This document shows positions 58,728-59,070 of a stretch of DNA of 64,000 nt, piece after piece (position 1 is the stretch's first letter; every line of letters starts with the position of its first letter). The stretch covers positions 18,168,001 to 18,232,000 of the forward strand of contig CM097885.1 of assembly GCA_044892525.1 (NCBI GenBank), in the 5' to 3' direction. This DNA comes from Schmidtea polychroa. Taxonomy: Eukaryota. The position numbers were made by a program, and so were the translations under genes. The notes beneath the pieces are model-generated. The model had not been told where the DNA came from. It saw nothing but the letters and a program-made list of their open reading frames with translations, and made no database searches.

Positions 58728-59070
58728 TCAAGGTCAAATTTTAAACAAAGACATATGACTCATCAAGGTCATTGAAACAAAGACCATGACTCATCAAGGG
58801 CATTGACACAAAGAACATGACTCATCAAGGTCATTGAAACAAAGACCATGACTCTTTCAAGGTCATTGGATGACTCATCAAGGTCATTGAAACAAAGTCC
58901 ATGACTCATTCAAGGTCAGAGGATGACTCATCAAGGTCATATTTTTAAGGTCAAGGTCATATTTTTAAAGGTCAAGGTCATATTTTTAAGGTCAAGGTCA
59001 TATTTTTAAAAGTCAAGGTCATATTTTTAAGGTCAAGGCCATTTTTTAAGGTCGTCATAATTTTGAGGTC
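58728..59070 (+). promoter_or_regulatory. Subterminal tandem array of TGACTCA and TCAAGGTCA motifs
   Basis: About 11 TCAAGGTCA and about 6 TGACTCA (hand count) in ~31-bp and ~20-bp units. Confidence 0.6.

What the first reader, a model, noticed from the sequence alone, without database searches (positions are those of the whole stretch)
58728..59070. Viral terminal repeat built from AP-1 (ATGACTCAT) and NR5A/ERR-type (TCAAGGTCA) sites
Seen: tandem units fuse ATGACTCA directly to TCAAGGTCA, followed by AAGGTCAAGGTCA units. A shorter version sits at the copy B end (33942-33990, reverse), and there is a YY1-like AAGATGGCGG at ~59353. Known: TGACTCA is the AP-1 site, and TCAAGGTCA is the extended half-site of FTZ-F1/SF-1/ERR receptors. 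Inference: the terminus is a copy-number-variable enhancer or origin that couples reactivation to stress/wound (AP-1) and nuclear-receptor signalling. The LxxLL in the acidic protein would fit this.
Basis: partly seen in the sequence, partly recalled or inferred. Interest (0 to 1): 0.72.

Follow-up and report, generated by a model that had tools for sequence, protein, structure and literature searches.

The report
Repeat-built enhancer at a Maverick end
Just inside one end of a broken virus-like jumping element in an animal genome lies a tandem array of textbook stress-factor and hormone-receptor DNA words, probably the element's own host-driven on-switch, as in several known viruses, but binding and activity are untested.

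Summary
The array is real. It lies 72-399 bases inside the (AGT)2 end of a decayed Maverick/Polinton (copy C). It has seven 21-35-bp units (six intact ATGACTCAT, each beside a TCAAGGTCA-type word), then five or six 13-21-bp units with zero-spacer AGGTCA repeats. An exact YY1 consensus and a RING gene lie further in. A distant copy (B) carries the first 67 bases at 64/67 identity although silent polymerase sites match at only 72/165, so the block is either constrained or recently swapped. The GGTCA core also recurs in non-tandem settings at all three element ends seen. Best reading (0.55): a host-factor enhancer/promoter of the element's first gene, enlarged by slippage, analogous to the cytomegalovirus immediate-early enhancer. 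Limits: copies in an array are not independent; motifs are not significantly better kept than spacers (p=0.10); 34 related loci lack the composite word but none is seen to reach a terminus; B's two ends are not inverted repeats; the receptor could be ERR or NR6A rather than NR5A; the LxxLL is present in copy A only; nothing here tests wounding. A new variant of a known kind, of moderate interest.

The parts
58656..58664 (+). End of copy C: (AGT)2 Maverick end motif
   Evidence: Sequence; matches the commonest end motif of vertebrate Mavericks (PMC8097293 section 7)
58668..58710 (+). Two 16-bp direct repeats and a C7G6 run; likely core origin / integrase-side end sequence (inferred)
   Evidence: TRF; same layout at B right end, first 45 bases 31/45 identical
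58728..58939 (+). Block 1: outer nonamer plus seven units of 35, 31, 31, 32, 21, 32, 21 bp, each an AP-1-type palindrome abutting a nuclear-receptor extended half-site; 4 units carry an intact AACAAAG in the spacer (HMG-box-type word, label recalled)
   Evidence: AP-1 words spaced 31,31,31,22,31,22 bp, about 3 or 2 helical turns
58940..59054 (+). Block 2: 13-21-bp units, T-run plus zero-spacer AGGTCA repeat (DR0), no AP-1 word
59055..59470 (+). Inner non-tandem zone with six GGTCA cores on the same strand; probably older decayed units, with a 53-bp internal duplication
   Evidence: 6 observed versus 0.21 expected
59353..59363 (+). Single YY1-type word, exact match to the published consensus on the minus strand
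   Evidence: background probability 5e-8 per base for the 11-mer; consensus in PMC7690695
59947..60489 (+). RING-finger ORF (180 aa) reading away from the end; candidate target gene of the array
   Evidence: Pfam PF13920 E=9e-7; no homologue at E<=0.001 among 206 candidates; Atlas leads only, 0.81
60820..64000 (-). Protein-primed DNA polymerase of copy C, broken by frameshifts, stops and an insertion; runs off the window
33943..34008 (-). Copy B right end: outer nonamer, one whole unit and one unit cut after the AP-1 word
   Evidence: 64/67 columns identical to C
34058..34101 (-). Copy B right end motif and two 16-bp repeats that themselves begin with GGTCA; an inverted third copy lies at 33890-33905
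22665..22731 (+). Copy B left end: (AGT)2 motif, one exact nonamer and a second AGGTCA in sequence that does not otherwise align with the other ends
22788..32500 (+). Copy B genes: chromodomain remnant of the integrase, minor capsid, small core-type protein, major capsid, protease-like ORF, intron-split acidic gene, broken polymerase; no integrase core or ATPase

Best explanation
The array is a cis-regulatory module of the Maverick itself: an enhancer/upstream promoter read by host factors, placed just inside the replication end and facing the first inward gene (RING ligase-type ORF). Shown: position, unit structure, exact consensus matches, above-neutral conservation between two distant copies, copy-number difference. 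Inferred: a Jun/Fos-type bZIP dimer binds each palindrome and an extended-half-site nuclear receptor (NR5A, ERR or NR6A) binds the abutting word; because the two words share a base they either cooperate or compete; the 31/22/20-21-bp periods keep sites on about one face of the helix; slippage and unequal recombination tune the number of sites; the DR0 block and the YY1 site may damp the promoter in some cells. The outcome would be that integrated copies are transcribed when host stress or differentiation signals switch these factors on. Copy C itself is now dead.
For: Block B versus C 64/67 identical against 72/165 at four-fold polymerase sites, Fisher p=4e-15, and all 3 differences fall outside the AP-1, receptor and AACAAAG words. 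GGTCA recurs outside the tandem array: 6 versus 0.21 in the inner zone, 2 AGGTCA versus 0.014 at B left end including an exact nonamer. A single-copy exact YY1 word, not explained by slippage. Family promoters use ordinary host-type parts: CCAAT boxes and a TATA-like box before the acidic gene in A and B and in loci L025 and L028. Words match published consensus: AP-1 and YY1 (PMC7690695), ERR element (PMC10484738), DR0 (PMC10909835). In a planarian, Polintons gain H3K4me3 and RNA during differentiation (PMC8532177); the host here is AT-rich (71%) but was not identified.
Against: Spacers are also far better kept than neutral sites (29/32, p=5e-7), so recent exchange explains the identity without selection; words versus rest p=0.10 (p=0.017 only if the spacer word is counted as a motif after the fact). 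The family is mosaic: A and B are 322/330 identical in the capsid tail but 341/473 in the acidic gene. Within C, 2 of 7 units have a substitution in a motif. In decayed units the core is not significantly better kept (p=0.52). 0 ATGACTCAT and 2 scattered nonamers in 34 related loci. How often a random 31-bp unit holds several known factor words was not measured. A planarian study warns that motif presence upstream of a gene does not indicate regulation (PMC10558129). About 600 bases, with a microsatellite insertion, separate the YY1 word from the RING ORF, and no transcript is known.
Confidence: 0.55

Rival explanations
1. Iteron-like origin or end-recognition array read by an element-encoded protein (polymerase/terminal protein, integrase or another), with the likeness to host factor words partly accidental; or host factors acting on replication rather than transcription, as at adenovirus ends (recalled).
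For: Starts 72 bases from the end; all cores face one way; B's outermost 16-bp repeats also begin with GGTCA, 12 and 28 bases from the end; the core is at all three ends seen. Relatives code their own TBP-like factor (L008, PF00352 E=5e-18), so private DNA words are plausible.
Against: C's 16-bp repeats carry TGTCA instead. The AP-1 palindrome is at only one of B's ends. The exact YY1 word 700 bases inside fits a promoter better. The nonamer also occurs outside Mavericks (3 places versus 0.41 expected).
Confidence: 0.2
2. Neutral minisatellite: one sub-terminal unit that happens to contain two factor words was amplified by slippage (perhaps after integration in C) and passed to B by recent recombination.
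For: Units form a duplication series with a 53-bp higher-order repeat; one copy of either word arises in 6-9% of shuffles; tandem arrays with other units lie downstream of the polymerase in related loci such as L011, L016 and L020; mosaic family; spacers conserved too.
Against: Does not explain the exact nonamer at B's otherwise unalignable left end (P about 0.003), the six same-strand cores in the inner zone, or the single YY1 word; near-integral helical periods (noticed after the fact).
Confidence: 0.2
3. A silencer: the DR0 block, extended half-sites and YY1 recruit repressors (NR6A/GCNF-type) that keep the element quiet in stem or germ cells, with AP-1 as the release.
For: 3 exact DR0; NR6A1 binds DR0 and is described only as a repressor (PMC10909835); YY1 represses the cytomegalovirus enhancer.
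Against: DR0 block is absent from copy B; RAR-RXR also bind DR0 (search listing); no expression data. Largely a variant of the best explanation.
Confidence: 0.05

Closest known systems
Maverick/Polinton elements (adintovirus type; PMC8097293, PMC8502044)
   Same: (AGT)2 end motif; polymerase B, capsid proteins, protease-like ORF; relatives carry rve integrase with chromodomain and A32 ATPase; accessory genes near the ends.
   Different: Copy B has no inverted ends, integrase core or ATPase, and its polymerase lies on the same strand as the capsid genes, pointing at the end (converging in L001, L008, L009, L010, L026; same-strand layout is reported for Xenopus tropicalis). No host-factor site array at Maverick ends turned up in searches.
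Human cytomegalovirus major immediate-early enhancer (PMC7690695)
   Same: Short repeats carrying host factor sites; AP-1, AGGTCA direct repeats and YY1 in one region ahead of an early gene; AP-1 needed for reactivation.
   Different: Unrelated virus; repeats are dispersed 18/19/21-mers, not one head-to-tail composite; receptor sites are DR1/DR5; function is proven there and untested here.
Adenovirus inverted terminal repeat with NFI/Oct-1 auxiliary origin; polyomavirus control regions with variable repeat number; baculovirus hr enhancers/origins (all recalled, no call; search 50 for the last found nothing)
   Same: Host factor sites beside a protein-primed end, or copy-number-variable enhancer repeats.
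   Different: Different factors; here the sites start about 70 bases in and are multiplied in tandem.
ERR element / NR5A half-site / NR6A1 DR0 (PMC10484738, PMC10909835)
   Same: Exact match to the extended half-site with TCA; exact DR0 three times.
   Different: These receptors share the word, so the sequence cannot name the receptor; the host's own receptor specificities were not tested.

Membership tests
Maverick/Polinton | [quoted passage not shown] | tested here: met
   PF03175 in B and C fragments; 199 longer relatives; broken in both copies
Maverick/Polinton | Major and minor capsid genes and protease in a module with the integrase | tested here: met
   B ORFs match capsid-module ORFs of L008/L009 (54-57% for the major capsid), which also code rve integrase and A32 ATPase. 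No Pfam or PDB sequence match for the capsid or protease themselves; their labels rest on gene order and recall. Not seen for C within the window.
Maverick/Polinton | rve integrase and packaging ATPase | tested here: not met
   Only the chromodomain tail (22788-22916) matches in the window; no hit for integrase core or ATPase of L008/L009. B is a deleted copy; C runs off the window.
Maverick/Polinton | (AGT)2 or (AG)3 end motif | tested here: met
   C end and B left end exact, B right end 5 of 6
Maverick/Polinton | Terminal inverted repeats | tested here: not met
   B left versus right 5/12 and 16/45 identical; C's other end is not in the window
Maverick/Polinton | 6-bp target-site duplication | tested here: inconclusive
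   Same 6 bases on both sides of B, but inside a TA microsatellite
Repeat-built viral enhancer (cytomegalovirus type) | Repeats that carry consensus sites of host transcription factors | tested here: met
Repeat-built viral enhancer (cytomegalovirus type) | Sites conserved more than spacers | tested here: inconclusive
   p=0.10 between B and C; p=0.52 in decayed units; 34 related loci uninformative
Repeat-built viral enhancer (cytomegalovirus type) | Lies ahead of an early transcription unit | tested here: inconclusive
   RING ORF 900 bases inward on the same strand; no transcript data
Repeat-built viral enhancer (cytomegalovirus type) | Factor binding and enhancer activity | not testable with these tools
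   Needs EMSA, ChIP, ATAC or reporter
NR5A (FTZ-F1/SF-1) response element | Word specific to NR5A | tested here: inconclusive
   The same word is the preferred ERR element and block 2 is an NR6A-type DR0
Nuclear-receptor coactivator box | LxxLL kept across copies of the acidic protein | tested here: not met
   LRSLL in A, LRCMM in B; only the hydrophobic pattern is kept

The most novel reading that the evidence does not exclude
Animal Mavericks carry a portable, copy-number-variable enhancer cassette at their ends, exchanged between lineages whose polymerases are nearly saturated at silent sites, that wires integrated copies to injury (AP-1) and nuclear-receptor signals of the host. This would be the missing trigger for reactivation of animal Mavericks, whose particles have not been observed.
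Probability: 0.2. Interest if true: 0.75.

Novelty: new variant of a known kind. Interest (0 to 1): 0.42.

Why it matters
What switches on integrated animal Mavericks is unknown; their particles have not been observed (abstract of PMC8097293). A compact array of exact host-factor words at an element end names testable candidates (AP-1, an extended-half-site receptor, YY1) and a 330-bp fragment to assay. If the block is swapped between distant lineages, it would parallel enhancer shuffling in retroviral LTRs (recalled), and scattered copies could also act on neighbouring host genes. The principle is textbook in other DNA viruses, so the surprise is moderate.

Tried and rejected
No whole genome was held, so copies outside the window could not be compared, and no read data were obtained. 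IMG/VR: no relative of the capsid by single query or alignment and no match to the composite pattern. Phage records: no match to the end. JGI metagenomes: 34 polymerase loci hold no fused word; none of the contig ends printed begins with the end motif, three loci have poly-C runs, so they do not test termini. L020 has three AACAAAG repeats at its far end in the same orientation, a weak lead. RING ORF: no homologue, Atlas under 0.9. Capsid profile against PDB sequences: 0. Host clade: two host proteins were not in the collection by exact look-up. Earlier findings by sequence, near place, relatives and words: nothing. Unbiased decay test: not significant. Panhandle between B's ends: rejected; B's right end can fold on its internal inverted 16-mer (-30.8 kcal/mol, no shuffle control), C has no such copy. 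LxxLL argument rejected. A calibration against a library of factor motifs was not carried out, so the look-elsewhere effect is open. Literature searches returned 0 papers; one search gave no paper that I read.

Full report
Setting. The window is AT-rich animal DNA (71% AT outside microsatellites) with an amidase, a duplicated Ets gene and ATT microsatellites. The host was not identified; a planarian is a guess from composition (about 70% AT in PMC10558129). It holds remains of Maverick/Polinton elements: copy A (1 to about 2050), copy B (22665-34101) and copy C (58656 to beyond 64000). The major capsid ORF of B has 171 relatives among 2519 candidates. Loci L008 and L009 carry the same capsid module together with rve integrase and A32 ATPase. 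B has lost the integrase core and ATPase; the polymerases of B and C are broken.

The observation. C begins with the (AGT)2 motif, the commonest end of vertebrate Mavericks (PMC8097293 section 7), then two 16-bp repeats and a C7G6 run. The array starts 72 bases in. Block 1 has seven units of 35, 31, 31, 32, 21, 32 and 21 bases; six keep ATGACTCAT and each ends in a TCAAGGTCA-type word that shares or abuts its last base. Block 2 has T-runs with zero-spacer AGGTCA repeats, three exact. In 58728-59070, 6 palindromes and 11 nonamers stand against 0.004 and 0.002 expected. These numbers show duplication, not selection: one copy of either word appears in 6-9% of 2000 shuffles.

Evidence that does not rest on duplication. 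(a) B's right end holds the first 67 columns of the array at 64 identical, while four-fold sites of the two polymerases match at 72 of 165 (44%; chance about 29%) and the outer 45 bases at 31. All three differences lie outside the words. But the non-word bases are also well kept (29 of 32), and words versus rest gives p=0.10; p=0.017 only when the spacer word is added afterwards. Recent exchange is a fair explanation, since A and B are 322/330 identical in the capsid tail and 341/473 aligned bases in the acidic gene. (b) GGTCA occurs 6 times on the same strand in the non-tandem zone 59055-59470 (0.21 expected), and B's left end, which does not otherwise align, has an exact nonamer and a second AGGTCA within 70 bases. 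When decayed units are picked by overall identity instead, the core is not significantly better kept (26/35 versus 61/91, p=0.52; 7 hits against 2.7 in controls, p=0.036). (c) The single word at 59353 is an exact match to the YY1 consensus quoted in PMC7690695, with background probability 5e-8 per base for the 11-mer; it was chosen because it is a known motif, and this selection was not corrected for. (d) AP-1 words are 31 or 22 bases apart and block 2 has a 20-21 period, close to 3 and 2 helical turns; noticed after the fact, and the two short units probably stem from one event.

Relatives. A metagenome scan with the polymerase C-terminal alignment gave 34 loci from 117 candidate stretches. 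In 235,040 strand-bases they hold 0 ATGACTCAT and 2 scattered nonamers. None of the contig ends printed shows the end motif, and in 5 of the 12 loci whose ORFs were listed the polymerase converges on the capsid genes instead of pointing at an end; the other 7 do not reach the major capsid gene. So the family-wide test is open, not failed. Other tandem arrays lie downstream of the polymerase in L011, L016 and L020. IMG/VR and phage records gave nothing.

How it most likely works. The layout is end motif, short repeats, factor-word array, YY1 word, then a RING ORF on the same strand (PF13920; no homologue). I read it as the host-driven enhancer and promoter of the first inward gene (0.55). A bZIP dimer and an extended-half-site receptor would sit side by side on each unit, cooperating or competing, and slippage would set the number of sites. 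Binding, activity, the target gene and the trigger are all inferred. The receptor cannot be named: the nonamer is the preferred ERR element (PMC10484738), the NR5A half-site (finding; recalled), and block 2 fits NR6A1, a repressor (PMC10909835). Rivals: an iteron-like or auxiliary origin array (0.2), helped by GGTCA in B's outermost repeats and by the TBP-like gene of L008; a neutral minisatellite passed on by recombination (0.2); a silencer (0.05). The LxxLL argument fails: A has LRSLL, B has LRCMM.

Comparison with what is known. The cytomegalovirus immediate-early enhancer has short repeats, AP-1, AGGTCA direct repeats and YY1, and AP-1 is needed for reactivation. So the array looks like a known kind of viral control region, but membership by function is untested. 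As a Maverick, B fails the tests for inverted ends, integrase core and ATPase and is best called a deleted, probably chimeric copy; 'terminal repeat' is not shown. In Schmidtea, Polintons are piRNA targets and are desilenced during differentiation (PMC8532177), which fits host-factor control in general but says nothing about this array. Searches (listings and abstract starts only) showed no paper on factor-site arrays at Maverick ends; subscription journals, Repbase records and supplements were not seen and could hold such a description.

Papers seen: passages by term search for PMC8502044, PMC8532177, PMC10484738, PMC10558129, PMC6431247, PMC7690695, PMC10909835; passages and section 7 for PMC8097293; listings only for the rest. 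Adenovirus, polyomavirus, baculovirus and LTR precedents are recalled.

Verdict. Observation confirmed; interpretation partly supported. New variant of a known kind, interest 0.42; the bold reading (portable, signal-wired enhancer cassette swapped between lineages) has probability 0.2 and would deserve 0.75.

Noticed in passing
window:22665-34101: Copy B has Maverick-type end motifs at both ends but no inverted repeats, goes from its left end straight into the integrase chromodomain, and has the polymerase on the same strand as the capsid genes; its right end has an internal inverted copy of the terminal 16-mer (33890-33905) and a 48-bp duplication 212 bases apart.
   Followed up: partly
window:1253-1800 and 26315-26990: Intron-split acidic gene: only 72% identical between A and B, whose capsid tails are 98% identical; points to module swapping or fast evolution.
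   Followed up: partly
window:1040-1256, 26100-26320; L025:1-150; L028:1-180: Shared promoter layout: two or three CCAAT boxes, a TATAAAC box and a short conserved word before the start codon, in A, B and two metagenome loci.
   Followed up: partly
window:27557-27568; L001:849-858: YY1-like word on the same strand 150-260 bases ahead of the polymerase start in B and in L001.
   Followed up: no
L008:11333-11779: TBP-like gene in a related element (PF00352, E=5e-18) next to the ATPase region; similar ORF in L009.
   Followed up: partly
window:59618-59710, 63037-63130, 33416-33440: A roughly 95-bp piece carried inside ATT microsatellites, twice in C and as a stub in B; in the C polymerase it is flanked by GC-rich 15-bp repeats (62841-63210).
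   Followed up: no
window:29841-31238: 1.4-kb insertion with inverted ends inside the B polymerase.
   Followed up: no
window:58220-58474: Small element with short inverted ends and an 8-bp duplication just outside C; holds the window's only TGACGTCA (58364).
   Followed up: no
window:7269-9948: Penelope-like element (reverse transcriptase pieces, GIY-YIG PF01541) with 700-bp inverted ends that each hold the same nonamer (7502, 9706).
   Followed up: no
window:2727-2735: The same nonamer lies 34 bases ahead of the start codon of the single-exon host amidase gene.
   Followed up: no
window:11021-13697 and 18560-21235: Ets-domain gene region duplicated at 99.2% identity; scrambled polymerase relics (15296-15973, 18141-18458) lie between the copies.
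   Followed up: no
window:46018-47338: Tandem duplication of about 660 bases at 91% identity.
   Followed up: no
L020:1825-1930: Three AACAAAG-bearing repeats at the contig end downstream of the polymerase, same orientation as in the window's units.
   Followed up: no
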